Below are positions 91 to 26,791 of a DNA stretch of 32,000 nucleotides, in pieces; positions within the stretch are counted from its first letter, which is position 1, and each line of letters opens with the position of its first letter. The stretch covers positions 1,800,001 to 1,832,000 of the forward strand of contig NC_010628.1 in NCBI RefSeq assembly GCF_000020025.1, read 5' to 3'. The notes beneath the pieces were generated by a model. That model was not told the DNA's origin and searched no databases. It was given only the letters and a program-made list of their open reading frames with translations. The position numbers and the translations under genes were made by a program. The DNA is from Nostoc punctiforme PCC 73102. Lineage in GTDB: Bacteria; Cyanobacteriota; Cyanobacteriia; Cyanobacteriales; Nostocaceae.

Positions 91-954
91 CTACCTTACA
101 TCTCCTTGCCCATCAGATTGTTGTGACCTATGTAGCTCCATAAGTTCTCCCAGCTTGAAAAACCTTATGCCATCCTCAGAAATATTTGGCTTGATAGGTT
201 CAACCTCATAACCTTCTTTACTTGGGATTCCAACATCTTCTAAAATCAACTCGTCATAGCCTGAATTGCTTACTTCTGGATCATCTCTATAATTTTGGCT
301 GTCAAGTATTATATTGTAGCCAACCTCATATTTATAGGATTTAATAACTAGACTATGTACAATACCGGGCTGATTACGCCATAAAACACGTGTACCGAGA
401 GGATAGTAAACTACATTATTTAGTGGTGGAACCTGCTCGATAAAATTCCTGTTTTCTAAAATTTCAATTAGCTCTTCTAGCTTTTCAGATGGTAACTTAA
501 ACCACTCGCTGTCTTCTACTCGATATTCGGCGAAAGCTTCATGTAAAAGCTTTTCAAATCTAGGTGCATCTTCAAAAAAAGAAGAGCAAACAAATAAATG
601 TTTAACTGGATTGCCTGTTTGTAGTTCTCGCATCCTTTTTGCGACATCCTTAGTAATACCTATTTTGTAATATTCTCTCGACTTTAGAACATAAATAAAT
701 CTATTTGAATTAGTTACTTCTTCATCGGATTGGGTATAGAAGGGTAAATGGTTCCAAAACCAGGATTCTCCCTTCTCATCTGGGGGAAATTGGTCAAAGT
801 ACTTACCTACAACATTCGCGCATTTTCCCCAATGTGCAGAGACTATTGTACTAGGATATACACCTCTCGAAAAAATACCACCTATCCCTTTGATCCAATA
901 AGTTCCTTTATTGTCTTTAATCGGTTCTCCACAGAGGTAGCAAATAGGTTCCAA
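91..954 (-). CDS. T5orf172 / MUG113-type (GIY-YIG superfamily) domain protein
   Basis: 287-aa ORF. The central block FIYVLKSREYYKIGITKDVAKRMRELQTGNP...EKLLHEAFAEYRVEDSEWFKL fits the T5orf172 consensus as I remember it (YKIGxT, R..L, lH..f, EWF). I do not recognise the N-terminal ~85 aa (CxxC at residues 5-8) or the C-terminal ~110 aa (beta-rich). Confidence 0.6.
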   Translation of the reverse strand: MEPICYLCGEPIKDNKGTYWIKGIGGIFSRGVYPSTIVSAHWGKCANVVGKYFDQFPPDEKGESWFWNHLPFYTQSDEEVTNSNRFIYVLKSREYYKIGITKDVAKRMRELQTGNPVKHLFVCSSFFEDAPRFEKLLHEAFAEYRVEDSEWFKLPSEKLEELIEILENRNFIEQVPPLNNVVYYPLGTRVLWRNQPGIVHSLVIKSYKYEVGYNIILDSQNYRDDPEVSNSGYDELILEDVGIPSKEGYEVEPIKPNISEDGIRFFKLGELMELHRSQQSDGQGDVR

Positions 955-1103
955 TCACTTACTCCTTTGTTGCTAGCTTAAGTTTCAATTGCAATTTGGC
1001 GTATCTTCACGAACACAACACAAATCGGTAGTTATTTGCATCCTTACGAATATAACTGTAAAGACGCGCTATGCGCTCCTAACTCCTAATTCCTTTTTTG
1101 CGT

Positions 1104-3926
1104 ATGATATACAAACTCCGTCAACAAAAGCTGTTGAGATGGATTGCATTGTTCCTAGTTGGAACATTTCTGCAATTTTTGTTTTACATCCCGACACCAG
1201 TCTTATCTCAAAATTCCAATAGCTGTAGCAATATTACAGCCCCTCTGACACCTGAAGAACAAACTTACGCTCGTGGTGCTTGGCAGTATTTTGTCAAAAA
1301 TTATCAGCCAGCAACAGGATTTACCAATTCTACAGGGGGTTATCCTTCTGGTACACTCTGGGATATGGGTAATTACCTGATGGCGTTGAATGCTGCACGC
1401 TGGTTGAATCTCACTGACCAAGCAGACTTTGATGCTCGTCTCAACAAATTTTTAACGACTCTCAGCAGCTTAAAGTTATTTGAAGATGCCTTGCCCAATA
1501 AAGTCTATAACGCAGCCAATGCACAAATGGTTGATTATGGCAACAATCCACTTGAGCGAGGTATTGGTTGGTCTGCTTTGGATGTTGGGCGAATACTGGC
1601 GGCGTTTGATGTCATCCGTACCTGTCATCCGCAATATAATGATTGGCTCAAAGGAATTGTAGCAAAGTGGCAAGTGGCGCGATCGCTCAAAGATGGGCAA
1701 CTTTTTGGCGCTACTGTTCTCCCAGACAACAAAACGTTACTGGTGCAAGAAGGACGACTCGGCTATGAAGAATACGGGGCTAGAGGTTATGGACTTTGGG
1801 GTTTCCCCGCACCCAAAGCTATTTCTTTAGAACCGTTTAAGTTAGTCGAAATTAATGGCGTGCAAATTCCCGTTGATACCCGTGACTTTAAAAGCACCAA
1901 TGCTAATAATTACGTTGTTAGTGAGTCTTATATCCTTGAAGGGATTGAGTTTGGCTTGCAAGGTGAGTTAGCTGATTTTGCTGCCAGGGTTTTAGATGTA
2001 CAAAAACGGCGTTACGATACCACAGGGCAGTTGACTGCGGTTACAGAAGATAATATCGACCAAGCGCCTTATTTTCTCTACAACACCGTCTACGCCAACG
2101 GTGCAAACTGGGCAACAATCACGGATGCTAATCAACCTTATCCACAGTTTCGCAGCATCAGTACCAAAGCTGCTTTTGGTTGGCGTTATCTTTTTCCAGA
2201 TAATGCTTATGCTCAAAAAGTTTTTGATGCTGTCAAGGATCTCCGCAGTCCTGATGATAGTGGTTACTATGCTGGTATCTATGAAGAATCAAAACAGCCT
2301 AATAAAGCTTTGACAGGTAATACTAATGGGTTGATTTTGGAGATTTTATACTACAAAGCTAAGGGAAATCACCCTTTAATTGCTTCTGGTGCTGCGAGTG
2401 TGTCTACTGGCAAGCCAAGTGAGAATATTTCTCCTGCAACACCCTCAAATCAACCGAATTCTACTGTTAAAACTCCGGCTAAAACACCCTCAAATCAACC
2501 GAATTCTACTGTTACAACTCCGCCTGCAACTCCTGCGGATACTCCTAAACCAACAGAAGTCGCTGTTGCACCTATTCCACCAGTAGATAGTCCTCAGCCA
2601 TCATCTCAGATCAAGATGGAGCGACCACTAACGCTGATTGAACGGCGTTATGCAGAGGCGGCTTGGCGATACTTTCAAGCGAATTATCATTCCAAGAATG
2701 GGCTGATAGACGATCGCAGTGATTTCAAAGGCGCAACCCTCTGGGGACTAGGAGATTACCTCGCAGCACTCCATGCAGCGCGATCGCTCGATATAATTAC
2801 TCCGAAAGAATTTGATCAACGCACCCGACATCTTTTAGCAGCCTTGACAAAGTTACCGTTATTTGCTGGAGAGTTACCTGGTCGAGGTTACGATACGCGA
2901 TCGCTACAATCAGTAGATTACGGTGGAAATCCAGCCCCAGAAGGAAACGGCTGGTCAGCTTTGGATTTAGGTAGAATGCTGGCAGCACTTTACAACTTAA
3001 AAACCTGTCATTCAGAATACACGGCTGCGGTAGATAAAATTGTGCTGGATTGGTCATATTTGCGTGTGGTACGCGAGGGTATTCTCTCCAGTGCTACCGT
3101 TATCAAAGAGCAAAATGGGCGATCGCTGATCCGCGTCAACCCAGAAACCCGCTTGGGATATGAAGAATATGCAGCTAGAGCTTTTCAATTATGGGGATTT
3201 AATGTTAATGGTTCTGCTGTTGGCGGAGAATATCAAACTGCCTCAGTAGAGGGAGTGAAAGTGCCAATTCAACGCCAACGCATAGATACCAACTCAAAAG
3301 TTAACCAATATACAGTTAGTAATCCTTTCTTACTCTATGCACTGGAGTTTGGACTAGATCCAAAAATGCGATCGCTCTTTGAACCAATTTTTCAAGCACA
3401 AGCTGAACGTTATCGTCGCACCGGCAACCTCACAGCCTCAGCTACCACCTTGATCGATCGTAAGCCTTACACTGTCCACAGCACAATTACTGGAAAAGGT
3501 GAGTCTTGGGTAGCTTTAGGAGATGATGGTCAACCTGTACCAAAGGGGCGATTGGTGAGTACAGCAGTCGCTTTTGCCTATCATGCCCTGCTTCCAGAAA
3601 ACAAGTACAGTCAAGAGTTACTGCAAGGAACGACTGACTTATATAACCCATTAGCTGGATTTTATGAGGGTTTCTATGAAGCCACAGGTAAAACGGCAGT
3701 TGGTTTCACTAGTAGCACCAACAGTATGATTTTACAATCCTTGCTGTACAAGGTAATGAATCAACAACCTCTAATTCGTCCGACAAATGACATGAAATCT
3801 CCTTGGTGGCAAGAAGTTAGTAAGGGAAATTCTGGGCGAGGTCTACCCAACACTGCCACACAACGAACCAAGTTAATTTCTGATAGTTCTAGCAGTTACT
3901 GGGTTTCAGCTAGCGATCGACATTAA
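1104..3926 (+). CDS. Exported protein with two tandem DUF3131-type domains joined by a Pro/Thr-rich linker
   Basis: The track ORF is 1098-3926, but 1098 is TTG and ATG follows at 1104. The N-terminal hydrophobic segment LLRWIALFLVGTFLQFLFYI is a signal peptide or anchor. There are two clearly paralogous halves (about aa 50-430 and 520-942). Examples: GAWQYFVKNY..GTLWDMGNYLMALNAARWL..GWSALDVGRILAAF..LGYEEYGARGYGLWGF versus AAWRYFQANY..ATLWGLGDYLAALHAARSL..GWSALDLGRMLAAL..LGYEEYAARAFQLWGF. The DUF3131 (PF11329) assignment is from memory and unverified. Confidence 0.6.
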   Translation: MIYKLRQQKLLRWIALFLVGTFLQFLFYIPTPVLSQNSNSCSNITAPLTPEEQTYARGAWQYFVKNYQPATGFTNSTGGYPSGTLWDMGNYLMALNAARWLNLTDQADFDARLNKFLTTLSSLKLFEDALPNKVYNAANAQMVDYGNNPLERGIGWSALDVGRILAAFDVIRTCHPQYNDWLKGIVAKWQVARSLKDGQLFGATVLPDNKTLLVQEGRLGYEEYGARGYGLWGFPAPKAISLEPFKLVEINGVQIPVDTRDFKSTNANNYVVSESYILEGIEFGLQGELADFAARVLDVQKRRYDTTGQLTAVTEDNIDQAPYFLYNTVYANGANWATITDANQPYPQFRSISTKAAFGWRYLFPDNAYAQKVFDAVKDLRSPDDSGYYAGIYEESKQPNKALTGNTNGLILEILYYKAKGNHPLIASGAASVSTGKPSENISPATPSNQPNSTVKTPAKTPSNQPNSTVTTPPATPADTPKPTEVAVAPIPPVDSPQPSSQIKMERPLTLIERRYAEAAWRYFQANYHSKNGLIDDRSDFKGATLWGLGDYLAALHAARSLDIITPKEFDQRTRHLLAALTKLPLFAGELPGRGYDTRSLQSVDYGGNPAPEGNGWSALDLGRMLAALYNLKTCHSEYTAAVDKIVLDWSYLRVVREGILSSATVIKEQNGRSLIRVNPETRLGYEEYAARAFQLWGFNVNGSAVGGEYQTASVEGVKVPIQRQRIDTNSKVNQYTVSNPFLLYALEFGLDPKMRSLFEPIFQAQAERYRRTGNLTASATTLIDRKPYTVHSTITGKGESWVALGDDGQPVPKGRLVSTAVAFAYHALLPENKYSQELLQGTTDLYNPLAGFYEGFYEATGKTAVGFTSSTNSMILQSLLYKVMNQQPLIRPTNDMKSPWWQEVSKGNSGRGLPNTATQRTKLISDSSSSYWVSASDRH
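2439..2528 (+). repeat. 45-bp direct tandem repeat (2 copies) inside the linker of the DUF3131 gene
   Basis: acaccctcaaatcaaccgaattctactgtta starts at 2439 and again at 2484. It encodes TPSNQPNSTVKTPAK / TPSNQPNSTVTTPPA. Confidence 0.85.
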
Positions 3927-4377
3927 GATAAGCAGACGCAGGAATGCAAAGATCCGTGCCTGCGTCCTCTAGTAGTTCGCCAAGTGTACTTGGCGGGGTA
4001 AAGAGTAAGGGGTAAGGGGGAAAGGTTCAAATCCCTTAACCTTTCCCCTTTCCCCAGTCCTCACTTAGCATTTTTGGGTTGGCAGACTACTAGCAGTAAT
4101 GTTGGGTTGGTAATAGGTTGTTAGTAATGAATTCAACTAGGGAATACTGATTCTGAAGGAATGCAGATAAAGTGGGAAGCTCCGTCTAGTCTATACGGCG
4201 GGGCTTCCCATTTCATCGGGAATAGCCTCCAGGACTCCCTAGTTCTATTGGTCTAACTTTTCCTCTCTTGTCAGAATCCCAAGACCCAAATCTTTTTCTT
4301 CTCCCAAAGGGAGACGCTAAAAGCGATGCAACATATACCTATCAGCTTGGTTCTCGCTTATGGCATTGATGGTTACT

Positions 4378-4422
4378 GAGCGTAGTCGAATCTAAAATCC
4401 AAAATCGTTCGACTGAACGCTC
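4378..4422. repeat. Small dispersed hairpin repeat (TTCGACTG..CGCTCA family)
   Basis: The imperfect inverted repeat gagcgtagtcgaa (4378-4390) / ttcgactgaacgctc (4408-4422) has a 17-nt loop. It shares the core ttcgactg(n)cgctca with the element at 11838-11918. Confidence 0.6.
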
Positions 4423-4454
4423 ACGACAAGTCCAAAATCTAAAATAGTACTAAG

Positions 4455-6458
4455 ATGAGTTCAGTTTCTATTAGTGATAATTCCTCAAAGTTTTCTGGTA
4501 ATAGTCGCTCATTACTTAAAAAAAGAACGCTGTTATTTCGCTATCTTGCAGAAATAAATTTAATTTTTGGTATCTGGTATTTGCAATGGCGCGTCACCCA
4601 TTCCATCAATTTTGATGCACTGTGGATCTCTATTCCTTTATTGATAGCAGAAATTTATAGCTATTTCGGCGGTGTGATGTTTGTGATTGGGTTGTGGCGA
4701 CCTTTAGTGCGACAGGTTAAGTCTCTCGACCAGATGACCCCACCTTTACCCAGATCGGACTGGCCAACAGTAGATGTCTTTGTAACCTGCTACAACGAAC
4801 CGCCGAAAATTGTAGAGGAAACTGCCAAAGCTGCTCTAGTAATGGATTATCCGCCAACAAAGTTACGAGTTTATGTTCTAGATGATGGTAACTCGGCTGA
4901 TATGCGGGCTATGACAGAAAGATTGTGTATTGAAGATTTGCAGTCACCACAACTACAACAAGAAGCAAATCGGATTGATGCAGAACACTCTTCTTTATTG
5001 CAGCGCCTAAAGGAACTAGAAAATCTCACACCTAATACTCAAGGTGCAGAACAATGGTTGCAAACATCATCATCAGAACCCGTAGTTAATCAGTTGGCTA
5101 CGGAATTTGTCCAAAGTCTGCGACAGTTTATTCTTTGGCTACCTCCGACTCATCAAAGTATTAGCGATTCTCCTGTGGAGACGCTACGCGATCGCCTCAC
5201 TACCGAACGGAAAGCCCTAGAGGAAACTATCCGTAAGAAAGAACTCGAACTTTTGGAACTCTCTCGGTTTCGGTATATCGCTCGTCCCAAGACACCTGGT
5301 GTAGCACATCATGCTAAAGCAGGCAACATCAATTACGCAATTTTTTCTGGACAAACGGCAGGAAATTTTATTGTTACTCTAGATGCCGACCACATTCCCA
5401 AGCAAAATTTTCTGAAGCGAGTTGTACCTTATTTCTATACATATAATCTTTCAACAGGAAGATACGACCAGAATCAAATTGCTTTTGTACAGACTCGCCA
5501 GGATTTTTACAATATTCCTCCAGGCGATCCTTTTGGACATCGAGCAAATTTATTTTATGGGCCACTTCAACAAGGTAAAGATGGCATGAATGCTGCGTTC
5601 TATACAGGCACAAATGCGATATTGAGACGTGAAGCACTAGTTAGTGTAGGACTGCAAAATTTTGCTGATGAATTTGCCAAAGATGAAAAACGTTTAGATG
5701 AATTTGATTTAGTTGGTGGGGTATCAAGTAATAGCATTACAGAAGATATGAATACAGCTATGCGTCTGCATAGTGCTGGCTGGAAATCTATTTATCACAA
5801 TGAACTTTTGGCAGAAGGTTTAGCGCCAGATGACCTGAGTTCTACTCTGAAACAGCGTCTACGCTGGGCACAAGGAACTATCCAAGTGCTAGTGAGAGAG
5901 AATCCATTGACAAAATCAGGGCTAACATTTTGGCAAAGGTTGCAATATTTTAAGACGATGTATAGTTATTTCTCTGGTTTTGCAACTCTGGTGTTTATTT
6001 CTTGCCCAATTATCTATTTTTTTACGGACATTGTTCCAGTTAAAACCTACGGGTCTGACTTTGCGATACACTTTTTTCCAGCTTTTATTATCAACCGTCT
6101 CACGTTCTTAGCAGCTACCTGGGGCATTCCAGCTACAGAAGTTTGGCGTTCTGAACAATATGCGATCGCTTTATTCCCCCTGCTAATCCAAGCTGTATGG
6201 AGTGTGTTCACAGGACAAAAACTCAATTTTCAAGTCACACCTAAGCAGAGGCAGTCTGGTATTTATCTCAGGCTAGTTTGGCCACAGTTAGTTATCTTTA
6301 TCCTCACTATTCTAGGGATATTATGGAGTCTTTATCGCTTTGCAATTGGTCATCTAAATAATCCTTTGGTTCACCTACTCAATGGTGCATGGGCTATCTA
6401 TAATTTGTTACTTTTGTCTGCTATCATCCGCGCATCCGTTTGGCAACCTCCAAAATAA
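4455..6458 (+). CDS. Cellulose-synthase-like processive family-2 glycosyltransferase (BcsA/CesA-like catalytic subunit, no PilZ domain)
   Basis: 667 aa. The ordered signature is VTCYNEP, VLDDG (DDG at 4881-4889), HAKAGNIN, TLDADH (DAD at 5382-5390), TED (5739-5747), QRLRW (5853-5867). There are two N-terminal and about six C-terminal hydrophobic helices. The protein ends directly after the last helix. Confidence 0.85.
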   Translation: MSSVSISDNSSKFSGNSRSLLKKRTLLFRYLAEINLIFGIWYLQWRVTHSINFDALWISIPLLIAEIYSYFGGVMFVIGLWRPLVRQVKSLDQMTPPLPRSDWPTVDVFVTCYNEPPKIVEETAKAALVMDYPPTKLRVYVLDDGNSADMRAMTERLCIEDLQSPQLQQEANRIDAEHSSLLQRLKELENLTPNTQGAEQWLQTSSSEPVVNQLATEFVQSLRQFILWLPPTHQSISDSPVETLRDRLTTERKALEETIRKKELELLELSRFRYIARPKTPGVAHHAKAGNINYAIFSGQTAGNFIVTLDADHIPKQNFLKRVVPYFYTYNLSTGRYDQNQIAFVQTRQDFYNIPPGDPFGHRANLFYGPLQQGKDGMNAAFYTGTNAILRREALVSVGLQNFADEFAKDEKRLDEFDLVGGVSSNSITEDMNTAMRLHSAGWKSIYHNELLAEGLAPDDLSSTLKQRLRWAQGTIQVLVRENPLTKSGLTFWQRLQYFKTMYSYFSGFATLVFISCPIIYFFTDIVPVKTYGSDFAIHFFPAFIINRLTFLAATWGIPATEVWRSEQYAIALFPLLIQAVWSVFTGQKLNFQVTPKQRQSGIYLRLVWPQLVIFILTILGILWSLYRFAIGHLNNPLVHLLNGAWAIYNLLLLSAIIRASVWQPPK

Positions 6459-6532
6459 ACATAAGAGGGACATAGGGAGAAGGAAAATAACTATTAACTC
6501 CCTGATAAATTCAATGTAAAAAGAAAAAAGTA

Positions 6533-7240
6533 ATGAACATTAATTCAGACTCAAAAAACTTTGGTCAAAGAACTGTCTTAACAATTTATGCTCATGCTGA
6601 TGATGAAGTTCTACCTGCTGCTGGCACTCTCAGTTTGATGTCCAAGGCAGGGTGGAATATTCGTTGCTTAATTTTGACTGATGGCAGTCTTTCCAGTTCG
6701 CCTATTAAGGGTACACGTCATCAAGAAGCGGATGCAGCAGGTAAAATCATCGGTGCAACTTACGAGTTTTATGCACTTGAGGAGTACAATTTTTCAACTC
6801 AAGCAGTGATTAAAGTTACTGAGGAAGCTATTAGGCGTTGGCAACCGGATCTAATTATTACTCATGCACCACAACCTGAAAAATATGGACATAGAGATCA
6901 TGAAGTATGTGCGATCGCAGTTTCTAATGTTGCTACCCGCAAAAACATAACTTTGTGGTATTCAGCCCCGCCTGTTTTTTTACGTGGTTTTGAACCCAAC
7001 TTTTTTGTGGATATTACTTCTGTAATTGAGGAAAAAGTTGCAGCTATTGGTTGTTATGAATCAGAGGTAAACAAAGCATTTATGCAACTTGATGCCATAC
7101 TGGTTCTATCTCGTTTTTGGGCACGAGAGTTAGGTCAAAAAGATGGTTACTTTGAAGCTTTTGAAATTTCCCGACAATGTGTAGATGCTAGCTTTTTTTA
7201 CGCAATAGCTAATAATCACCAAGTAATTAAACCCAGCTAA
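6533..7240 (+). CDS. PIG-L / LmbE family (CE14-type) N-acetylglucosaminyl deacetylase
   Basis: 235 aa. It has LTIYAHADDEVL (an AHPDDE-type motif) and HRDHE (HxDH), the zinc-ligand motifs of the PIG-L fold. There is no signal peptide. It starts 74 nt after the synthase stop on the same strand. Confidence 0.75.
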   Translation: MNINSDSKNFGQRTVLTIYAHADDEVLPAAGTLSLMSKAGWNIRCLILTDGSLSSSPIKGTRHQEADAAGKIIGATYEFYALEEYNFSTQAVIKVTEEAIRRWQPDLIITHAPQPEKYGHRDHEVCAIAVSNVATRKNITLWYSAPPVFLRGFEPNFFVDITSVIEEKVAAIGCYESEVNKAFMQLDAILVLSRFWARELGQKDGYFEAFEISRQCVDASFFYAIANNHQVIKPS

Positions 7241-7279
7241 TCGTCATTTAATTAAATAAACGTTGGGTTTTTACCTCAA

Positions 7280-7645
7280 CTACTCATTTTCTATCAAAAC
7301 TGTAACAGCTGCGATCGCAATCAACATTTCATCATTTTTATCGTTTAGTTCGGGAATCGCCCGCCCTTGAACTATCATCCCTCCAGATTCTACGGTGAGG
7401 GTTTTTCTACCAAATGGTAGGACAGCTAGTACCTCTTCTTCTCTAACTTGTTCTGGATATGGCACTGCTACTTGAACTTCTATAATCATTTCATTGGGAT
7501 GACTTAAACCTGCAACTTCCCAAACACCAGGTAAGGCATTGTGAGCGATCGCATTCCGTACCGCCCTAGATGCTGCTATTGTTGGTTCTTGTCCATGCTG
7601 ATCTATTCCCATCCCCATCTCAATAATCAACCGTTTACGCGCCAT
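7280..7645 (-). CDS. Lin0512-family small conserved protein
   Basis: 121 aa. LIIEMGMGIDQHGQEPTIAASRAVRNAIAHN resembles Lin0512-family proteins as I remember them. The function is unknown. Confidence 0.55.
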   Translation of the reverse strand: MARKRLIIEMGMGIDQHGQEPTIAASRAVRNAIAHNALPGVWEVAGLSHPNEMIIEVQVAVPYPEQVREEEVLAVLPFGRKTLTVESGGMIVQGRAIPELNDKNDEMLIAIAAVTVLIENE

Positions 7646-7825
7646 TTCTACCTCTAGTAATTCTGCACACTTTAAATAAATTCAGGAGTCAAAAGCCAGA
7701 ATCTAGAGTTTTCTGAATACTGACTTTTGATTCCCCAAGCGAGAGGATATATGTATGGTCTTCTGGGGAGAAGGTAAGATTAGTCCATTTGTAGAGCGAC
7801 AGCTGTGCGCCCCTACTAAGGTGCT

Positions 7826-9559: not shown

Positions 9560-10790
9560 ATGTCTGATAAGCAGGTAGTAGAAAGCATTCAAGACAAGTA
9601 CGATTCGTTATCGCCTTATTTGAATGAGAAAACACGGCGTATTTGGGCAGCAATTGAAGCCCGAAGCCTGGGCTGGGGAGGCGTGAGTCAGGTTGCGCTC
9701 GCAACTGGACTATCCCGGACTACAATCCATGCTGGGATACGGTTATTGTTAGACGCTTCGGGGGAAAAAACCTCGAATGATGATAGTAATCGAATTCGTT
9801 CGTCAGGTGCTGGACGTAAACTACTTGAAGAAAAAGACGCAATGCTGCTATCAGATTTAGAATCGCTGATTGAACCAGTGACACTGGGAGACCCAGAATC
9901 TCCTCTAAAATGGACTTCTAAAAGTGTTGTGAAACTGGCTGCGGCATTAAACATTGGGGGACATAGGACTAGTCCTAAAAGTGTTTATAACTTACTTGAA
10001 TCGCTTGGCTACAGCTTACAATCAAATCGTAAAACCCGTGATGGCTCATCTCATCCAGATAGAGATGATCAGTTTTTACATATTTCCAACCAAGTCTTGC
10101 ACTTTCAATCCCAGAACGAACCCGTATTTCAGTTGATACAAAAAAAAAGAATTAATTGGAGATTTTAAAAATTCTGGAACCGAGTGGTGTGAAAAGGAAC
10201 AGCCAATTGAGGTGAAAATGCATGATTTTGTTGACCCCAAGTTGGGCAAGGCAATTCCCTACGGAATTTATGACTTAACCTCAAATCAAGGATGGGTAAA
10301 TGTTGGCATTGACCACGATACCGCAGAGTTTGCAGTCGAGTCTATTCGTCATTGGTGGTACTCAATGGGTAAACAAGTTTATCCCAGCAGTGAGCATATA
10401 ATGATTACGGCTGATTGCGGTGGTAGCAATAGTTATCGCTCACGATTGTGGAAATTGAAGTTACAAGAATTAGCAACTGATACTGGTAAAACTATTCATG
10501 TGTGTCATTTTCCTCCAGGCACAAGTAAATGGAATAAGATTGAGCATCGCTTGTTTTGTCACATTACCCAAAACTGGCGAGGCAGACCATTAACTAGCTT
10601 GCAAGTTGTGATTAATCTAATTCGCAATACTACCACCACACAAGGATTAGAAGTTGAAGCTAGATTAGATCCAAATCTCTACAAAACGGGAATCAAGGTT
10701 ACAGACCAAGAGCTTGATACTATCGCAATCGAACGAAATTCTTTTCATGGTGAGTGGAACTATATTATCAAACCCAAAGTAGTCAGTTAA
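9560..10790 (+). pseudogene. ISAzo13-family DDE transposase, frameshifted
   Basis: ORF 9560-10168 (SPYLNEKTRRIWAAIEARSLGWGG..HPDRDDQF) and ORF 10212-10790 (KAIPYGIYD..GIDHDTAEFAV..CHFPPGTSKWNKIEHRLF..FHGEWNY) are the N- and C-halves of one ISAzo13-type transposase. The family motif ISVDTKKK reads only in the third frame (10126-10149), between the two ORFs. This implies two 1-nt lesions, one of them in the A9 run at 10140-10148. Confidence 0.8.
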
Positions 10791-10920
10791 TTGTTCAATT
10801 TATTTTTACATAACTCCTAAGGGGGGATTAAGGGGGGGGTAATTCGACTTGTGTATACACCATAGCTTATAAAAGTGAGGGAATTAGATGTTCTAGTTTC
10901 CCCTTTCTAATGTTATTTTG

Positions 10921-11172
10921 GCGTTCGCATTTGCTGATATAGCGTTCGCATTTGTTGATTTAGCGTTCGCATTTGCTGATTTGGCGTTCGCATTTGCTGA
11001 TATAGCGTTCGCATTTGTTGATTTGGCGTTCGCATTTGCTGATATAGCGTTCGCATTTGTTGATTTAGCGTTCGCATTTGCTGATTTAGCGTTCGCATTT
11101 GCTGATTTGGCGTTCACATTTGCTGATATAGCGTTCGCATTTGTTGATTTGGCGTTCGCATTTGCTGATTGC
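10921..11172. repeat. Tandem array, 12 contiguous copies of a 21-bp unit GCGTTCGCATTTGYTGATWTR
   Basis: I counted the units by hand starting at 10921, with period 21. The variants are C/T at unit position 13, ATA/TTA/TTG at positions 19-21, and one G>A in unit 10. Every ATA-ending unit is followed by a GTTGAT unit. Confidence 0.95.
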
Positions 11173-11338
11173 ACTTATTCTCAAACAAGAAATCGATATA
11201 AAAAATGAGTAAAAATACAGACAAACTCGTAATTATTTCGTTGAACTTTTAATGAAATAAATCCACAAAACTACCCATCTCAGGCAAAAGGATACTCCAC
11301 TATGTTGAAAAAGGAATTCTTAAAAAAAAGGATATCTC

Positions 11339-16610: not shown

Positions 16611-18229
16611 TTATCTCTTTAAAAAGTTCTTGGAACACAAGTTAGCAGCAAGTAGCATTTCTACTTCTGCACTTTCCATAGGTCGTAAGAAAAAATACCC
16701 TTGTCCATAATCACATTGTAACGCCTTCAGTTGTGCTAATTGCTCTACAGTTTCTATACCTTCTGCTGTTACAGACATGTTTAAATTATGAGCTAATGTC
16801 ACAATTGCTCTCACAATCTCTAAATTTTCTCCTCGACTACCTATATTAGTGACGAAAGAGCGGTCAATCTTCAGGGTTTTGATTGGTAGGCGGTGTAGAT
16901 AACTCAATGATGAATAACCAGTTCCGAAATCATCTATGTGCATCTCGACATTTAGCTCTGTTAACTGAGAAAGCACAGTGGTAGCTAATTCAAAATTATC
17001 CATCAACAGGGTTTCAGTAATCTCCAACTTTAAACTGCATGGCTTCAGTCCAGTTTCTTGCAAAATATGTTTAACTTGTTTAAACACATCAGGTTGCGTT
17101 ATTTGTTTCCCAGAAAAATTTACGCTAATTGTCAGAGGTAGTGAGCTAGGAAATTTTTGATGCCATCTGTGCATTTGCTGACAGGCTTCAAAAAGCACCC
17201 ATTGCCCAATACTAACAATCATTCCAGTTTCCTCAGCCAGGGGAATAAAATCTTGAGGAGAAATAAGCCCTCGTTTTGGATGATACCAACGTATCAGGGC
17301 TTCAAATCCAATAATTTTGCCAGTTATAAGTGAAATAATTGGCTGGTAATTAAGGCGAAATTCTTTTTGCTTAAGCAGTGCATTTCGCAAAGCAGTTTCT
17401 AACTCTAATAGCAAAGATGCACCCTCGTACATCTTTTGGTCAAAGACCTCATAGCGTGCTTTGCCAAGTGATTTGGCGCGGTACATTGCAACATCGGCAT
17501 CGCGGAGAATATGCGCTGATTGTTCATAATCTGGTTTACTTAAAGCGATGCCGATACTAGCATTAGTAAATACCAGATGCTCATTTAATTCAAATGGCAA
17601 AGCTAGCACCTTTTTAATTCGCTCGGCTACCTGTATGGCGATGTCAATATCCTCAATGTCCTCAATTAAGATAGTGAACTCGTCTCCACCAAAGCGGGCA
17701 ACTATGTCTCCGGTTCGCAGAACTGACTTTAACCGATGGGAAATTGCAATCAAAAGTTGATTTCCTAGTAGATGTCCCAGGCTGTCGTTAACAACTTTAA
17801 AGCGGTCTAGGTCTAAAAAGAGTACGGCAAATAAATAATTATTTTGCTGTTTAGTACGTTCTATTGCTTGCTGGACTCGCTCCATAAATAATCGTTGATT
17901 AGGTAAGCCAGTTAGTCCGTCATGAAGACTATTGTGAAGTAATTGCTCTTGTGCTTGTTGACGCTTGATAATGTCTTGTTCTAGTTGTTGATTTACTCTG
18001 ATAAGTTCAACGGTGCGTTCTAGAACCAGTTTTTCAAGCTGATAACGATATTGAATTAATTCTTCCTCTACTAACTTACGCTTAGTGATGTCACGGATAA
18101 TAACAACATACTCCCGAAGCTGAGAATTAAATGGCTGGGAAATAGTCGATTCAACAATTCTTAGACCTTGATTTATTTTTAAAGTTTGCTCAGTTCTGAT
18201 AGACCATTGCTTTGGTTTGCCGTGATAGC
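16611..18229 (-). pseudogene. 3' part of an IS-split signalling gene: C-terminal half of PAS, then GGDEF and EAL domains
   Basis: The reading frame is open from the IS boundary (18229) through the track ORF 16611-17885. GGDEF is intact (RFGGDEFTIL). EAL motifs are intact (GFEALIRW, DDFGTGYSSLSYL, KIDRSF, EGIET..QGYFF). Confidence 0.85.
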
Positions 18230-19411
18230 CAAAAGTGTTGAATGTTAAGAAAAATCCGATAAAAACAGCCCAAAATATGTTAAATTTTGGGCGGAAGATT
18301 AAAGTATATCTATTTAATAGTGATTATAAATTCATTTCCCAAGATTGTCAAAGATATCTTGAGAGGACTGCCAAAAAACGATTATCCAGTATTGAACAGT
18401 CGTCTGTTCTTTGAGTGCTGGTTATCTTATGCTATGGATAACAGCTTAACAAGTATGCGAGATTTATTTAACAGATTAAACAACACAGGATTTCCGGTAG
18501 ATATTTCTACTTTCTCTAAAGCAAACTTACATCGAAGTCAAAAACCTTTTCAAGAAATTTACCAAAAATTAAATGAATTAGTACAGAAGAAAGTTCAAAA
18601 AAAGTTACATGATAAATATGCAATTTGTCCAATAGATTCAACAATTATTACTCTCACAAGTAAATTGTTATGGGTACTAGGACACCATCAAGTAAAACTT
18701 TTCAGTTCTCTAAATTTAGCTACTGGAAGTCCATCAGATAACTTCATAAACTTTGGACATGACCATGACTATAAATTTGGTTGTAAAATGATGTCTAGTC
18801 TACCAAATAATGCTGTTGGTGTAATGGATAGAGGTTTTGCTGGATTAAAATTTATCCAAGAATTAGTCCAAGAAAACAAATACTTTGTTTTGCGGGTAAA
18901 AAACAATTGGAAGTTAGAATTTGAGGAGCAAACTGGATTAATTAAAGTTGGTGCATCTAATGATGCTCAAGCCTATAGAGTGATTAATTTTTGTGATTTA
19001 GAAACGAAAACTGAGTTTCGATTAGTAACCAATTTACCAACATTAGGAGAGGCTGCCGTTAGTGATTATGAAATCAGGGATATTTATCGATTGCGTTGGG
19101 GAGTTGAATTGTTGTGGAAGTTTTTGAAAATGCACTTAAAACTTGACAAGTTAATTACTAAAAATGTTAATGGTATCACCATACAAATTTACGTTACTTT
19201 AATAGCTTATCTAATTTTACAGATATTATCTGTACCACAACAATGGGGACATACGCTATTAGATAAATTCCGCTATTTACAATCTTGTATGTGTCAGAAA
19301 ATAAGTTATGTTCATTGGTTTGAAGAGATGATGTCATGTTGACTATTTTAGGCTTTTTAGAGTTAGTGTAACTAGATATGTAAACTTTTGTATCAGCATT
19401 CAACATTTCTG
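18230..19411 (+). mobile_element. IS4-family insertion sequence (1182 bp) with 9-bp target site duplication
   Basis: The imperfect terminal inverted repeats are caaaagtgttgaatgttaaga (from 18230) and, reverse-complemented from 19411, cagaaatgttgaatgctgata. The direct repeat CGTGATAGC is at 18221-18229 and 19412-19420. Confidence 0.85.
18287..19342 (+). CDS. IS4-family DDE transposase
   Basis: DDE candidates are CPIDST, VMDRGF and the Y-x2-R-x3-E-x6-K block YRLRWGVELLWKFLK. The track start at 18287 is TTG. GTG at 18320 is an alternative start. Confidence 0.8.
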   Translation: MGGRLKYIYLIVIINSFPKIVKDILRGLPKNDYPVLNSRLFFECWLSYAMDNSLTSMRDLFNRLNNTGFPVDISTFSKANLHRSQKPFQEIYQKLNELVQKKVQKKLHDKYAICPIDSTIITLTSKLLWVLGHHQVKLFSSLNLATGSPSDNFINFGHDHDYKFGCKMMSSLPNNAVGVMDRGFAGLKFIQELVQENKYFVLRVKNNWKLEFEEQTGLIKVGASNDAQAYRVINFCDLETKTEFRLVTNLPTLGEAAVSDYEIRDIYRLRWGVELLWKFLKMHLKLDKLITKNVNGITIQIYVTLIAYLILQILSVPQQWGHTLLDKFRYLQSCMCQKISYVHWFEEMMSC

Positions 19412-25966: not shown

Positions 25967-26791
25967 TTATGCTACAAACTTGTGGAATCTTGTAGTGAGA
26001 AATAACAACATTCTATTTTTTTTTTGTTGACTTGGCACACTCCAAATTTCTCGTAAAAATAATGTAGCTACAAACCAAGGCTCAAGCAAGTAACGTCTCC
26101 AAAGTCTTTTCGGTTCAGATAATAAGCGATACAACCATTCCAATCCAACCCTTCCCATCCAGCGAGGAGGAGTAGGTAATGCTCCTGCTACATAGTCCAT
26201 ACAGGCTCCACTAGTCAAAATAGTGTTGGTATGAATATATTCCAGATTTTCCGAAATCCAATACTCTTGGCGTGGCATACCCATCCCCACCATTAATACA
26301 TGAGGTTTGTAAGCATTAATTGCAGCCAGAGTCGCAAGATTTTCTTCACTATCTTTATCCATATCAATATAGCCATGAGCGCAAGCAATCTGTAAACCAG
26401 GAAATTTCTGGCGCAAAATACTTGCTCCTTGTTCTGCCACTCCTGGCCTTGAACCTAAATAGAATACACGCCAGTCTTTATTAGCTGCTTCTGCCATCAG
26501 AGGCCATACCCAGTCAGCATAGGTTACTCTTTGTTCTCGTTTCATTGGAAAACCTAACAACTTTCCAATAAACAATAGAGGCATACCATCAATATGAATA
26601 TATTCAGCCTTGGCATAAAACGCTTGCATTTTTGGATCGTTATGAAAGAGATAAAGACTATGCAAGTTGTGATTAGCAATAATCCATTTCTCGGTTTTTT
26701 CAATAGACTCTTCAATTAATAAATTTAACTCTGGGATAGAGAGTGCATCAACTTTAACACCAAGAAGCTTATAAGAAAATCGATTTTTCAT
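25967..26791 (-). CDS. WecB/TagA/CpsF-family (GT26) glycosyltransferase
   Basis: 274 aa. The hallmarks are LLGVKVDALS, DGMPLL, YLGSRPGVAEQ, VGMGMPRQEYW and GLEWLYRLLSEPKRLWRRYL. Confidence 0.8.
   Translation of the reverse strand: MKNRFSYKLLGVKVDALSIPELNLLIEESIEKTEKWIIANHNLHSLYLFHNDPKMQAFYAKAEYIHIDGMPLLFIGKLLGFPMKREQRVTYADWVWPLMAEAANKDWRVFYLGSRPGVAEQGASILRQKFPGLQIACAHGYIDMDKDSEENLATLAAINAYKPHVLMVGMGMPRQEYWISENLEYIHTNTILTSGACMDYVAGALPTPPRWMGRVGLEWLYRLLSEPKRLWRRYLLEPWFVATLFLREIWSVPSQQKKNRMLLFLTTRFHKFVA

What the first reader, a model, noticed from the sequence alone, without database searches (positions are those of the whole stretch)
1104..7240. Non-canonical cellulose-synthase-like module: exported tandem DUF3131 protein + PilZ-less GT2 synthase + cytoplasmic PIG-L deacetylase
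Three same-strand genes combine a processive beta-glycan synthase signature (DDG, DxD, TED, QRLRW) with two partners that are not part of the classical Bcs repertoire.
- No BcsB, GH8 BcsZ, BcsC, or HlyD/TolC-type partner is visible in this window.
- The upstream protein is exported and carries two copies of an uncharacterised domain. I suspect this domain is an alpha/alpha-barrel glycan-binding or glycanase fold, which could stand in for BcsB/BcsZ.
- The downstream PIG-L enzyme family acts on GlcNAc-containing substrates and here has no signal peptide. This hints at a GlcNAc-containing primer, acceptor or product rather than plain cellulose.
- The gaps are 528 bp (gene 1 to 2, so possibly separate promoters) and 74 bp (gene 2 to 3).

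This is my best candidate for an undescribed exopolysaccharide system.
Basis: partly seen in the sequence, partly recalled or inferred. Interest (0 to 1): 0.75.

Follow-up and report, generated by a model that had tools for sequence, protein, structure and literature searches.

The report
Glucan synthase with conserved periplasmic partner
This Nostoc locus is a cut-down copy of a widespread but unstudied gene cluster, in which a cellulose-synthase-like enzyme lacking the usual c-di-GMP switch always sits next to exported barrel proteins of unknown function (DUF3131) that resemble beta-glucan-cutting enzymes; the deacetylase gene beside it is an optional Nostoc-only extra.

Summary
Three same-strand genes encode a tandem DUF3131 protein, a PilZ-less BcsA/CesA-like GT2 synthase, and a PIG-L deacetylase.

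- **Synthase:** it belongs to the already named cyanobacterial "cellulose synthase with PCR domain" class (alr3757, Npun_F1469, A2118).
- **DUF3131 link:** this is real and old. A DUF3131 gene lies directly upstream of the synthase in 78 of 78 informative Nostocales loci and 6 of 6 other cyanobacteria. Three or four copies flank the homologous synthase in five proteobacterial loci read in full (Pantoea, Salmonella, Enterobacter, Burkholderia, Ramlibacter, Paracoccus).
- **DUF3131 fold:** an AlphaFold model (pLDDT 90.7) is an (alpha/alpha)6 barrel. Its closest solved relatives are beta-1,2-glucanases and the cyclising domain of cyclic-glucan synthase, not BcsZ.
- **PIG-L:** it is Nostocales-specific. 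It is intact in 60 of 80 loci, decayed in 6 and absent in 14, and absent from every other lineage examined.
- **Missed regulators:** a STAS / PP2C / RsbW-like partner-switching module flanks the synthase in about 76 of 80 Nostoc loci. In some cyanobacteria its kinase-like domain is inserted inside the synthase.
- **This window:** it has lost that module and the third DUF3131 domain. The three remaining genes are still under purifying selection.

The product is probably a beta-glucan but is unproven.

The parts
1104..3926 (+). Gene for an exported or membrane-tethered protein with two DUF3131 domains (942 aa from the alternative TTG at 1098).
   Evidence: ORF. Pfam DUF3131 twice, E = 0. 92.6% identical to the annotated Nostoc flagelliforme DUF3131 protein. 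dN/dS 0.12-0.14.
1104..1226 (+). N-terminal basic and hydrophobic segment: a signal peptide or a signal anchor.
   Evidence: The sequence MIYKLRQQKLLRWIALFLVGTFLQFLFYIPTPVLSQ has a best 19-residue hydropathy window of 1.78. Orthologues in PCC 7376 and Chamaesiphon have the same kind of N-terminus.
1227..2405 (+). DUF3131 domain 1 (residues 44-436): an (alpha/alpha)6 barrel.
   Evidence: Pfam 1e-168. AF2 model pLDDT 90.7, pTM 0.92. The top 19 Foldseek PDB hits are all GH144/162/189/192-194 structures. It keeps all 29 near-invariant family residues, including D162, E224 and E284.
2406..2609 (+). Pro/Thr/Ser-rich linker between the two barrels.
   Evidence: Translation (…PATPSNQPNSTVKTPAKTPSNQPNSTVTTPPATPADTPKPTE…). 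It lies between the two HMM envelopes.
2610..3800 (+). DUF3131 domain 2 (residues 505-901), 37% identical to domain 1.
   Evidence: It keeps the near-invariant residues D623, E689 and E750; only two non-acidic positions differ.
3915..4446 (.). Lineage-specific spacer. It occupies the place where relatives carry a 352-370 aa secreted protein and a third DUF3131 gene.
   Evidence: blastn shows the window is homologous to N. flagelliforme only over 1044-3914 and 4447-7251. The spacer has no counterpart there and is shared only with L001 and L002.
4113..4170 (+). Conserved non-coding element found upstream of the synthase gene in short-gap Nostoc loci. It is a candidate promoter or 5' leader of the synthase.
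   Evidence: Alignment of 12 species. The core pattern was found once in the window, at 4121-4148, with 0 expected by chance. It was also found in 22 loci, always just upstream of the GT2 gene. No Rfam family matches.
4455..6458 (+). PilZ-less BcsA/CesA-like processive GT2 synthase (667 aa), of the cyanobacterial "CesA with PCR region" class.
   Evidence: Pfam Cellulose_synt 1e-38. Best PDB relatives are BcsA at 5e-51 and plant CesA at 2e-36. NCBIfam CelA 332 bits, below the 699 cut-off. The protein ends about 10 residues after the last TM helix, with no PilZ. dN/dS 0.09-0.10.
4902..5264 (+). Insertion between the DDG and DxD motifs (about residues 150-270; the "PCR" region), predicted to be helical or coiled coil.
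   Evidence: In alignment A4, the same insertion point in PCC 7376, PCC 7319 and a Coleofasciculaceae genome holds a complete HATPase_c_2 (RsbW-like) domain (Pfam 6e-18 and 7e-16). Nostoc keeps only the flanking segments.
6533..7240 (+). Cytoplasmic PIG-L/LmbE-family (CE14) deacetylase. It is a Nostocales-specific accessory of the cluster.
   Evidence: Pfam 1e-20. Nearest structures are the B. cereus LmbE-like protein 2ixd at 1e-11 and diacetylchitobiose deacetylases. The AHADD and HRDH metal-site motifs are present. Intact in 60 of 80 loci, remnant in 6, absent in 14. Absent from 6 of 6 other cyanobacterial clusters. dN/dS 0.07-0.10.

Best explanation
The locus is a reduced copy of a conserved synthase-dependent beta-glucan system.

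**Synthase.** The GT2 protein is a BcsA/CesA-type enzyme. It polymerises a beta-glucan from a cytoplasmic UDP-sugar and threads it through its own membrane channel. The product is most likely a beta-1,4, cellulose-like chain made from UDP-glucose. The fold and motifs are shown; the product is inferred.

**DUF3131 partner.** The tandem DUF3131 protein is the synthase's conserved partner on the outer face of the cytoplasmic membrane. [quoted passage not shown] I infer that it binds the emerging chain and cuts or transglycosylates it: trimming, release or remodelling, a role comparable to BcsZ and partly BcsB. The fold and synteny are shown; the activity is inferred.

**Regulation.** In relatives the synthase is controlled by a partner-switching module instead of PilZ/c-di-GMP. 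The module consists of a response-regulator PP2C phosphatase, a STAS protein and an RsbW-like kinase. It probably acts on the insertion between the DDG and DxD motifs, because in some cyanobacteria the kinase-like domain is built into that insertion. This locus has lost those genes and the third DUF3131 domain, so here control is either in trans or absent.

**PIG-L.** It is an optional, Nostocales-only cytoplasmic accessory whose substrate is unknown.
For: **Synthase identity**
- Pfam and PDB matches to BcsA and plant CesA, with all catalytic and gating motifs intact.
- 89% identical to proteins annotated as cellulose synthase in Nostoc punctiforme NIES-2108.
- It belongs to the PilZ-less "PCR" class. 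Knocking out a class member in PCC 7002 removes a cellulase-sensitive, CBD-labelled periplasmic layer.

**Functional link to DUF3131**
- DUF3131 lies directly upstream of the synthase in 78 of 78 Nostocales loci that have enough upstream sequence.
- The same holds in 6 of 6 cyanobacteria from other orders.
- Three or four DUF3131 genes follow the homologous synthase in Pantoea, Salmonella, Enterobacter, Burkholderia, Ramlibacter and Paracoccus. In most of these the first DUF3131 gene overlaps the synthase stop codon by 4 bp.
- The Nostoc synthase scores higher against these DUF3131-linked or partner-switch-linked synthases (286-329 bits) than against canonical BcsA (211-244 bits).

**DUF3131 fold and pocket**
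- AF2 model pLDDT 90.7. The top 19 PDB hits are all SGL-clan enzymes, at E 5e-11 to 5e-7 and TM 0.63-0.69.
- The family profile hits only GH189 domains in the PDB, at 2.7e-5.
- Twelve polar or aromatic residues are at least 90% conserved across 164 domains and are kept in both halves here.

**Accessory hydrolases in relatives.** GH9 plus GH2 occur in Chamaesiphon, a cyanobacterial MAG and Burkholderia. GH16 occurs in Paracoccus, Ramlibacter and Sphingobium. These point to a beta-glucan product.

**Regulation**
- In the 80 Nostoc loci, STAS is present in 77, PP2C in 76 and the RsbW-like gene in 74.
- HATPase_c_2 is inserted inside the synthase in three cyanobacteria.

**Genes still in use.** dN/dS is 0.07-0.14 for all three genes, including within the trimmed lineage.
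Against: - No biochemical data exist for any DUF3131 protein. I could not superpose the model on solved SGL structures, so the equivalence of catalytic residues is untested.
- The nearest folds act on beta-1,2-glucan, not cellulose. OpgC and GH16 neighbours in proteobacteria, and the low-salinity defect of the PCC 7002 mutant, fit a periplasmic non-cellulosic glucan at least as well.
- The proteobacterial synthases have QR(F/Y)KY where Nostoc has QRLRW, so the products may differ between phyla.
- One related synthase cluster (Sphingobium RAC03) has the regulators but no DUF3131.
- I could not check whether A2118 of PCC 7002 itself has a DUF3131 neighbour.
- The 528-bp gap carries its own conserved upstream element, so the DUF3131 and synthase genes may be transcribed separately here.
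- My Nostocales sample is only the 80 closest of 306 hits.
Confidence: 0.55

Rival explanations
1. The system makes a periplasmic, osmoprotective beta-glucan rather than secreted cellulose. The glucan would be OPG-like and possibly beta-1,2-, beta-1,3- or mixed-linkage. The DUF3131 barrels would be transglycosylases or glucanases that size, branch or cyclise it, as OpgG/OpgD or the GH189 domain of cyclic-glucan synthase do.
For: - The fold and the only sequence-profile hits are to beta-1,2-glucan enzymes, including the retaining transglycosylase GH189.
- OpgC (an OPG succinyltransferase family) lies in the Salmonella, Enterobacter, Burkholderia and Paracoccus clusters and in one cyanobacterial cluster.
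- GH16 neighbours occur in three taxa.
- The PCC 7002 mutant grows at half speed and makes minicells only at low salinity, and the polymer sits between peptidoglycan and outer membrane.
Against: - The synthase is far closer to BcsA/CesA than to the OPG synthase OpgH (MdoH models score 28 bits against a 550 cut-off).
- The PCC 7002 layer was digested by cellulase and labelled by a cellulose-binding domain.
- GH9 endo-beta-1,4-glucanase genes sit in three clusters.
- Candidate outer-membrane barrel genes in several clusters suggest export.
Confidence: 0.25
2. The PIG-L deacetylase marks a GlcNAc-containing primer, acceptor or product, so the three genes form a new non-cellulose exopolysaccharide pathway.
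For: - PIG-L lies 74 bp downstream on the same strand, inside the cluster (between the synthase and STAS) in complete Nostoc versions.
- It keeps its metal-site motifs and is under purifying selection.
- GH2, a family that includes exo-glucosaminidases (my own knowledge), recurs in other clusters.
Against: - PIG-L is absent in 14 and decayed in 6 of 80 Nostocales loci whose synthase is intact.
- It is absent from 6 of 6 other cyanobacterial clusters and from all proteobacterial clusters read.
- The synthase scores far better against cellulose synthase models than against PgaC or NodC models (332 bits versus 73 and 47).
Confidence: 0.08
3. DUF3131 is a non-catalytic structural subunit. It would be a BcsB-like periplasmic guide or carbohydrate-binding scaffold that has kept a glycanase fold but does no chemistry.
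For: - The gene set keeps three or four paralogous domains, fused in cyanobacteria into proteins of 1,350-1,820 aa. That looks more like a scaffold than a single enzyme.
- The first proteobacterial paralogue is membrane-anchored and translationally coupled to the synthase.
- Separate true hydrolases (GH9, GH16, GH2) accompany many clusters.
Against: A Glu conserved in 99% of domains, together with D162, E224 and several Tyr, Trp and Arg residues, is retained in all paralogues. This is typical of an active pocket, although binding modules derived from enzymes can keep such residues.
Confidence: 0.2
4. In this particular strain the module is a decaying remnant with no role, because it has lost the third DUF3131 domain and all adjacent regulators.
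For: - Two blocks present in relatives are missing.
- Transposase fragments lie 2-3 kb downstream.
- Only 3 of 80 loci share this state.
Against: - All three ORFs are intact with their motifs.
- dN/dS is 0.07-0.14 between the window and Nostoc sp. LEGE 12447, which shares the trimmed layout.
- Forty-seven of 80 Nostoc loci also lack the third domain, so two barrels evidently suffice.
Confidence: 0.1

Closest known systems
Cyanobacterial "cellulose synthase with PCR domain" (CesA: alr3757 of Anabaena PCC 7120, Npun_F1469, SYNPCC7002_A2118)
   Same: - PilZ-less GT2 with an insertion between the U1 (DDG) and U2 (DxD) motifs and a plant-like FYTGTN motif.
- The window protein is 78-98% identical to Nostoc proteins annotated this way.
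- The C-terminal …WQP ending matches the A2118 C-terminus that I deduced from the published primer.
   Different: The literature treats this synthase as having no known partners. Here it is shown to sit in a conserved cluster with DUF3131 proteins and a partner-switching module. The "PCR" insertion is the site where other cyanobacteria carry an RsbW-like domain.
Classical Bcs systems (BcsA-BcsB with BcsZ and BcsC; types I-III)
   Same: A processive GT2 with D, D, D, QxxRW and FxVTxK motifs and its own channel, plus an exported (alpha/alpha)6-barrel protein encoded alongside it, as BcsZ is.
   Different: - No PilZ, BcsB, BcsC or GH8 is present.
- The barrel belongs to a different lineage (Foldseek E 1e-4 and TM 0.45 to BcsZ, against 5e-11 and 0.68 to GH144).
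- The barrel is present in two to four copies.
- Regulation is by partner switching, not c-di-GMP.
[quoted passage not shown]
   Same: - The closest solved folds.
- The DUF3131 profile hits only GH189 domains in the PDB.
- A periplasmic or exported enzyme acting on a bacterial beta-glucan made by a membrane synthase.
   Different: - No significant sequence match to PF10091/GH144 or to any SGL structure by phmmer.
- DUF3131 is not one of Groups 1-4 of Nakajima et al..
- Its partner is a BcsA-like GT2, not a GT84 or OpgH.
- The substrate is unknown.
Cyanobacterial XcsA-XcsB(HlyD)-TolC cellulose system (Tll0007 type; Npun_F6500)
   Same: A cyanobacterial BcsA homologue without BcsB.
   Different: That system has a PilZ domain and an HlyD-like partner. 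The system here has neither, and has DUF3131 instead.
Partner-switching control of polysaccharide synthesis (RsbU/V/W-type modules; SypE-SypA of Vibrio fischeri, from my own knowledge)
   Same: RR-PP2C, STAS and RsbW-like genes are embedded in a polysaccharide locus in relatives.
   Different: - They are absent from this window.
- In three cyanobacteria the RsbW-like domain is inserted into the synthase itself. I found no description of that arrangement.

Membership tests
BcsA (UDP-forming cellulose synthase catalytic subunit, classical) | GT2 catalytic motifs D, DxD, TED and QxxRW, plus the FxVTxK gating loop. | tested here: met
   DDG 143-145, DAD 310-312, TED 429-431, QRLRW 467-471 and FQVTPK are present. 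phmmer to BcsA structures gives 5e-51.
BcsA (UDP-forming cellulose synthase catalytic subunit, classical) | C-terminal PilZ domain that binds c-di-GMP. | tested here: not met
   No PF07238 hit. The alignment to E. coli BcsA stops at residue 690, before PilZ, and the protein ends about 10 residues after the last TM helix.
BcsA (UDP-forming cellulose synthase catalytic subunit, classical) | Score above the curated equivalog cut-off (TIGR03030 or NF008558). | tested here: not met
   332 bits against 699, and 243 bits against 992.
BcsA (UDP-forming cellulose synthase catalytic subunit, classical) | Adjacent BcsB partner. | tested here: not met
   No BcsB family hit on any ORF of about 100 aa or more in the window.
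Cyanobacterial CesA "with PCR domain" | No PilZ, and an insertion between U1 (DDG) and U2 (DxD). | tested here: met
   An insertion of about 120 aa at residues 150-270, absent from the proteobacterial homologues in alignment A4. The class definition is in PMC12430437.
Cyanobacterial CesA "with PCR domain" | Orthology to named members (Npun_F1469, alr3757). | tested here: inconclusive
   89% identical to the "cellulose synthase" of N. punctiforme NIES-2108 and 78-98% identical to many Nostoc and Anabaena proteins. The exact PCC 73102 and PCC 7120 sequences were not retrieved.
Cyanobacterial CesA "with PCR domain" | The product is cellulose. | not testable with these tools
   The only evidence is genetic and cytochemical data for A2118 in PCC 7002.
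SGL clan (GH144/GH162/GH192-194) and GH189 | (alpha/alpha)6 barrel that superposes best on clan members. | tested here: met
   Foldseek top 19 hits are all clan members, E 5e-11 to 5e-7, TM 0.63-0.69. The next fold class starts at 2e-5.
SGL clan (GH144/GH162/GH192-194) and GH189 | Clan-defining Glu/Phe/Tyr triad (E239, F286, Y367 of XcSGL) in equivalent positions. | not testable with these tools
   Model coordinates and PDB files cannot be superposed here. DUF3131 does have a Glu conserved in 99% of domains (E284) and conserved Tyr and Phe residues, but their equivalence is unproven.
SGL clan (GH144/GH162/GH192-194) and GH189 | Sequence membership in one of the defined families. | tested here: not met
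   No PF10091 hit even at E up to 10. No phmmer hit to the PDB. The profile hit to GH189 covers only the first ~125 residues, at 2.7e-5.
SGL clan (GH144/GH162/GH192-194) and GH189 | Activity on beta-1,2-glucan. | not testable with these tools
   No assay has been reported for any DUF3131 protein in the searchable literature.
PIG-L / LmbE (CE14) deacetylases | Pfam PF02585 above its gathering score, and metal-binding H-x-D-D and H-x-x-H motifs. | tested here: met
   75 bits against 28.2. AHADD at residues 20-24 and HRDH at about 119-122 align with 2ixd.
Bacillithiol deacetylase BshB1 | Equivalog score. | tested here: not met
   69.6 bits against 182.5.
OPG (osmoregulated periplasmic glucan) OpgGH system | An OpgH-type GT2 and an OpgG/D (GH186) protein. 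| tested here: not met
   MdoH models score 17-28 bits against cut-offs of 328-550. No OpgG/D family is present in the window.
GT2 + DUF3131 + partner-switching cluster (unnamed; defined here) | A PilZ-less BcsA-like GT2 directly flanked by DUF3131 gene(s). | tested here: met
   Window. Relatives.
GT2 + DUF3131 + partner-switching cluster (unnamed; defined here) | Adjacent STAS, RR-PP2C and RsbW-like genes (or a fused RsbW-like domain). | tested here: not met
   tblastn of the N. flagelliforme proteins finds none in the 32-kb window. They are present in 74-77 of 80 related loci.

The most novel reading that the evidence does not exclude
[quoted passage not shown] It is the obligate periplasmic partner of a distinct, cross-phylum clade of PilZ-less BcsA-like synthases. 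Together they build a processed envelope beta-glucan with an osmoprotective, OPG-like role, rather than classical secreted cellulose. Synthase activity is switched post-translationally by an RsbU/V/W-type partner-switching module that docks on, or in some cyanobacteria is inserted into, the so-called PCR region. On this reading, the "plant-like" insertion of cyanobacterial CesA would be a regulatory docking site rather than a homologue of the plant P-CR.
Probability: 0.3. Interest if true: 0.8.

Novelty: new variant of a known kind. Interest (0 to 1): 0.62.

Why it matters
**An open question becomes testable.** The PilZ-less cyanobacterial cellulose synthase has been discussed since 2001 as the closest bacterial relative of plant CesA. 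A 2025 review still lists its "interaction partners" and regulation as unknown. This locus and its relatives supply concrete candidates for both:
- a multi-barrel DUF3131 protein on the periplasmic side;
- a partner-switching module on the cytoplasmic side, fused into the enzyme in some species.

**The same kit is widespread.** It occurs in Enterobacter, on Salmonella and Pantoea plasmids, in Burkholderia, and in an accessory block of Klebsiella pneumoniae that tracks an ecological gradient.

**What a solved function would give:**
- a function for a Pfam DUF with about 1,000 sequence clusters;
- possibly a new CAZy family;
- an account of how a c-di-GMP-independent synthase is controlled;
- a clearer view of what the "cellulose" layer of cyanobacterial envelopes really is.

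For this strain the result is more modest. It carries a trimmed but maintained version of the system.

Tried and rejected
- **phmmer of the DUF3131 protein against PDB sequences:** no hit. Only family profiles reached GH189.
- **Pfam at E up to 10 for each DUF3131 half:** no GH144 (PF10091) signal.
- **Group 4 / PgSGL4 of the SGL paper as a possible DUF3131:** rejected. It has a beta-propeller plus CBM architecture.
- **The 352-370 aa secreted protein that relatives carry between the DUF3131 genes, as a fourth degenerate DUF3131:** hhalign is negative (probability 0.2%). It shows only a weak GH26 hit. It is unrelated to the ~300-aa candidate outer-membrane proteins of the proteobacterial clusters.
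- **One-to-one orthology between the three Nostoc DUF3131 domains and the three proteobacterial paralogues:** not resolved by bit scores.
- **Promoter and terminator consensus scans over 900-7700:** counts at or below shuffled expectation, so uninformative about co-transcription.
- **Rfam on the 528-bp gap:** only chance-level miRNA hits on a G-rich hairpin.
- **The one genome-contig scan:** it returned only the 80 closest of 306 hits, all Nostocales. Wider sampling had to come from plasmids and exact-protein look-ups.
- **Neighbourhood of A2118 in PCC 7002:** I could not retrieve it to see whether the experimentally studied gene has a DUF3131 neighbour. Its relative PCC 7376 does.
- **Stray domains elsewhere in the window as possible regulators of the cluster:** a GGDEF-EAL gene, a cNMP-binding gene and a BcsQ-like ParA were considered. 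No conserved linkage was found, and these neighbours are not shared with other Nostoc loci.

Full report
**1. What is in the window**

The window comes from a Nostoc strain. Its synthase gene is 98% identical to that of Nostoc sp. LEGE 12450, and the flanks match as well.

- 1098/1104-3926 (942 aa);
- 4455-6458 (667 aa);
- 6533-7240 (235 aa).

The gaps are 528 and 74 bp. Pfam gives DUF3131 twice (E = 0), Cellulose_synt plus GT2 models (1e-38) with no PilZ, and PIG-L (1e-20). The two DUF3131 halves are 37% identical and are joined by a Pro/Thr-rich linker. The DDG, DAD, TED and QRLRW motifs and an FQVTPK gating-loop motif are present. No BcsB, GH8, BcsC or HlyD family occurs on the window's ORFs of about 100 aa or more.

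**2. The synthase is a known class**

Its closest solved relatives are BcsA of E. coli and Rhodobacter (5e-51) and plant CesA (about 1e-36). It falls well below NCBI's BcsA equivalog cut-offs (332 against 699 bits).

The protein ends just after the last transmembrane helix, so there is no PilZ domain. It carries an insertion of about 120 residues between the DDG and DxD motifs.

[quoted passage not shown] The review states that its partners and mechanism are unknown.

For A2118, a knockout in Synechococcus PCC 7002 lost a layer between peptidoglycan and outer membrane. That layer was cellulase-sensitive and labelled by a cellulose-binding domain. The mutant also grew at half speed, with minicells, only at low salinity.

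From the published primers I deduce that A2118 ends in …YWQPEEQ and is about 790 aa long. The ending matches the …WQP terminus of the window protein and of PCC 7376. This is inference.

**3. The DUF3131 link is real, old and wide**

*Nostocales.* I examined 80 loci, one per species; these are the closest 80 of 306 hits.
- Every locus with enough upstream sequence has a DUF3131 gene directly upstream of the synthase (78 of 78).
- Of the 80, 73 have the intact tandem protein.

*Other cyanobacteria.* In six genomes of other orders, a DUF3131 protein of 1,350-1,820 aa with three or four domains sits immediately upstream of the synthase. An extra single-domain copy often accompanies it. The six are [Leptolyngbya] PCC 7376, Pleurocapsa PCC 7319, Chamaesiphon PCC 6605, a Coleofasciculaceae genome, Almyronema and one further MAG.

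*Proteobacteria.* The homologous synthase (605-627 aa, also PilZ-less) is followed by three or four DUF3131 genes.
- The first has a membrane anchor. In most of these loci it overlaps the synthase stop codon by 4 bp.
- Examples read in full are Pantoea stewartii pDSJ10, a Salmonella IncFIB plasmid, Enterobacter, Burkholderia, Ramlibacter and Paracoccus.
- Homologues are also named in Kosakonia, Cronobacter, Serratia, Yersinia, Edwardsiella and Noviherbaspirillum. A Vibrio megaplasmid has the synthase gene about 200 bp from the nearest of its four DUF3131 matches.

*Family size.* The family has 984 clusters at 50% identity with E below 1e-3. Tandem forms reach Aquificota and Campylobacterota.

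*Synthase affinity.* The Nostoc synthase scores 286-329 bits against these cluster-linked synthases and 211-244 bits against canonical BcsA on plasmids.

*Literature.* In Anabaena PCC 7120 the pair alr3756 ("unknown protein") and alr3757 is listed as one operon. I infer, but did not check, that alr3756 is the DUF3131 orthologue. I found no paper that assigns DUF3131 a role.

**4. What DUF3131 is**

An AlphaFold2 model of the first domain, built on a 49-sequence alignment, is confident (pLDDT 90.7, pTM 0.92).

Foldseek against the PDB returns beta-1,2-glucan enzymes for all of the top 19 hits (E 5e-11 to 5e-7, TM 0.63-0.69):
- GH144 (4qt9, 3eu8, 5gzk, 5z06, 4gl3);
- the families newly defined in PMC12102758 (8xuj, 8xuk);
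- fungal GH162 (6imu);

Other (alpha/alpha)6 folds follow only from 2e-5. BcsZ comes at 1e-4 with TM 0.45.

At sequence level, only a family profile reaches the PDB, and it reaches only GH189 domains (2.7e-5). GH144's Pfam model is not matched. DUF3131 is not one of the groups surveyed by Nakajima and colleagues. It is therefore a separate, uncharacterised branch next to the SGL clan.

Across 164 domains from 150 cluster representatives, the residues conserved at 90% or more include W62, Y137, D162, R165, E224, Y226, R262, E284 (99%), Q302, R305, Y371 and N410. Both halves of the window protein keep all of these. That pattern fits a working sugar-binding or catalytic pocket.

I could not superpose coordinates. 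Whether E284 matches the clan's general-acid Glu therefore remains untested.

**5.

The complete Nostoc version is seen on N. flagelliforme pNFSY07. Its gene order is: tandem DUF3131, a 352-aa secreted protein, a third DUF3131, the synthase, PIG-L, STAS, response-regulator PP2C (SpoIIE), an RsbW-like anti-sigma kinase, and a histidine kinase.

Counts in the 80 Nostocales loci:

| Component | Present |
|---|---|
| STAS | 77 |
| RR-PP2C | 76 |
| RsbW-like gene | 74 |
| Third DUF3131 | 29 |
| PIG-L | 60 intact, 6 remnant, 14 absent |

The same regulatory trio flanks the proteobacterial clusters. It also flanks a Sphingobium cluster that has the synthase and GH16 but no DUF3131.

In PCC 7376, PCC 7319 and the Coleofasciculaceae genome, a complete HATPase_c_2 domain (6e-18, 7e-16) is inserted in the synthase between DDG and DxD. 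That is exactly the place of the Nostoc "PCR" insertion. A STAS gene lies next door. This domain fusion argues strongly that partner switching acts on the enzyme itself, in the place that PilZ/c-di-GMP holds in BcsA.

The window is homologous to the complete cluster only over 1044-3914 and 4447-7251. The 352-aa gene and the third DUF3131 gene are replaced by 532 bp of unrelated sequence. Everything after PIG-L is replaced by unrelated genes (Lin0512 family, cNMP-binding) and transposase fragments. Only LEGE 12450, LEGE 12447 and one further strain share the loss of the regulators.

The three remaining genes are nevertheless under purifying selection. dN/dS is 0.10-0.12 against N. flagelliforme and 0.07-0.14 against LEGE 12447.

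**6. PIG-L**

It is a bona fide family member with metal-site motifs and no export signal. It is not a BshB1 equivalog.

It sits inside the complete Nostoc cluster. But it is dispensable in a quarter of Nostoc species, and it is absent from all six other cyanobacterial clusters and all proteobacterial ones. The case for a GlcNAc-containing product is therefore weak. I treat PIG-L as a lineage-specific accessory of unknown substrate.

**7. Product and mechanism**

*Shown:*
- a BcsA/CesA-type synthase-translocase;
- a conserved exported multi-barrel partner with a glucanase-like fold;
- conserved partner-switching genes in relatives.

*Inferred:*
- The polymer is a beta-glucan.
- Evidence for beta-1,4: the PCC 7002 data, the closeness to BcsA/CesA, and GH9 genes in Chamaesiphon, a MAG and Burkholderia.
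- Evidence for another or additional linkage and a periplasmic role: the beta-1,2-glucan affinity of the fold, OpgC and GH16 neighbours, the low-salinity phenotype, and QR(F/Y)KY replacing QxxRW in the proteobacterial synthases.

I commit to the following model. The synthase makes and exports a beta-glucan, most likely cellulose-like. The DUF3131 barrels process it at the periplasmic face. My confidence is 0.55. The OPG-like periplasmic-glucan variant is the main rival, at 0.25.

**8. Novelty and verdict**

The synthase class is known. Its conserved partner set and mode of control are not, as far as the searchable literature shows.

I therefore call this a new variant of a known kind (synthase-dependent beta-glucan systems). 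The window holds a trimmed member. Interest is 0.62: a specialist would be surprised by the cross-phylum DUF3131 and partner-switching kit and by the kinase-like domain inside the synthase. These findings make the open question of how PilZ-less cellulose synthases work directly testable.

Noticed in passing
L091:16968-19352, L092:14239-16605, L094:14110-16512: In [Leptolyngbya] PCC 7376, Pleurocapsa PCC 7319 and a Coleofasciculaceae genome, the cellulose-synthase-like GT2 carries a complete HATPase_c_2 (RsbW-like anti-sigma kinase) domain. It is inserted between the DDG and DxD motifs, with a STAS gene next door. This is the position the literature calls the plant-like "PCR domain".
   Followed up: partly
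window 4113-4170 (core 4121-4148): A non-coding element of about 55 nt (…GTTGTTAGTAATGAATTCAACTAGGGAATACT…GATGCAGAT) is conserved upstream of the synthase gene. It occurs in 22 Nostoc loci, all of the type that lacks the third DUF3131 gene. In most species it lies 20-100 nt before the ATG. Here about 285 bp of extra sequence separates it from the ATG. No Rfam family matches.
   Followed up: partly
window 3992-4065: A G-rich, near-perfect hairpin (gggtaagggggaaaggttcaaatcccttaacctttcccctttcccc) lies in the spacer. It gave only chance-level miRNA hits in Rfam. It could be a small repeat element left by the deletion.
   Followed up: no
L005:7207-9939 and L083:15011-17530: In complete Nostoc clusters, the stop codon of the 352-370 aa secreted protein (weak GH26 hit) abuts, in the same frame, the ATG of the third DUF3131 gene. 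The first residues of that gene (…KSMILQSVLY..NQQPL) resemble the last helix of a DUF3131 barrel. This may be a split or read-through gene. hhalign found no DUF3131 similarity in the upstream ORF.
   Followed up: partly
L081:8733-10550, L087:6783-8666, L088:6779-8620, L082:8513-10348, L089:9935-11743: All proteobacterial synthases of this cluster type have QR(F/Y)KY in place of QxxRW and VSED in place of TED. They also have two insertions that cyanobacteria lack. The acceptor site, and perhaps the product, may differ from BcsA.
   Followed up: no
L086:4449-5348, L081:6142-7041, L088:5001-5933, L091:15576-16694: Conserved ~300-aa secreted "hypothetical" proteins lie in the proteobacterial clusters, with repeated aromatic-Gly motifs. 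PCC 7376 has a 372-aa protein with a weak BcsC C-terminal hit that ends in Phe. These look like outer-membrane beta-barrels and may be the export pore.
   Followed up: partly
L003 (CAZZZY010000186.1): A contig binned as an "uncultured Acetobacteraceae" MAG carries a synthase and a PIG-L gene that are 95% identical to the Nostoc ones. This is most likely a binning error in a lichen or cyanobiont metagenome.
   Followed up: no
window 25967-31918 (- strand): A separate Wzy-type polysaccharide cluster: a WecG/TagA-family transferase, two GT4 genes, a GT2 gene and a Wzy_C fragment running off the window end. It is unrelated to the finding.
   Followed up: no
window 9560-10790: An ISAzo13-family (DDE_Tnp_ISAZ013) transposase is split into two ORFs (202 and 192 aa), so it is probably inactivated. 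It lies 2.3 kb beyond the point where homology to the complete cluster ends.
   Followed up: no
window 10893-11208: A highly repetitive stretch reads as ANANAKS-type repeats on one strand and AFAFAD-type repeats on the other. It is a tandem DNA repeat, not a credible gene.
   Followed up: no
window 16611-21185: A GGDEF-EAL protein has a GGDEF match that starts at profile position 17, so it may be N-terminally truncated. A DDE transposase ORF (18287-19342) overlaps the end of an amino-acid-permease-PAS fusion ORF (19194-21185). This suggests insertion-sequence disruption of a signalling gene.
   Followed up: no
window 91-954 (- strand): A T5orf172/MUG113 (GIY-YIG-like) domain protein lies immediately upstream of the cluster. 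It is shared only with LEGE 12450, which is another sign of recent rearrangement at the cluster borders.
   Followed up: no
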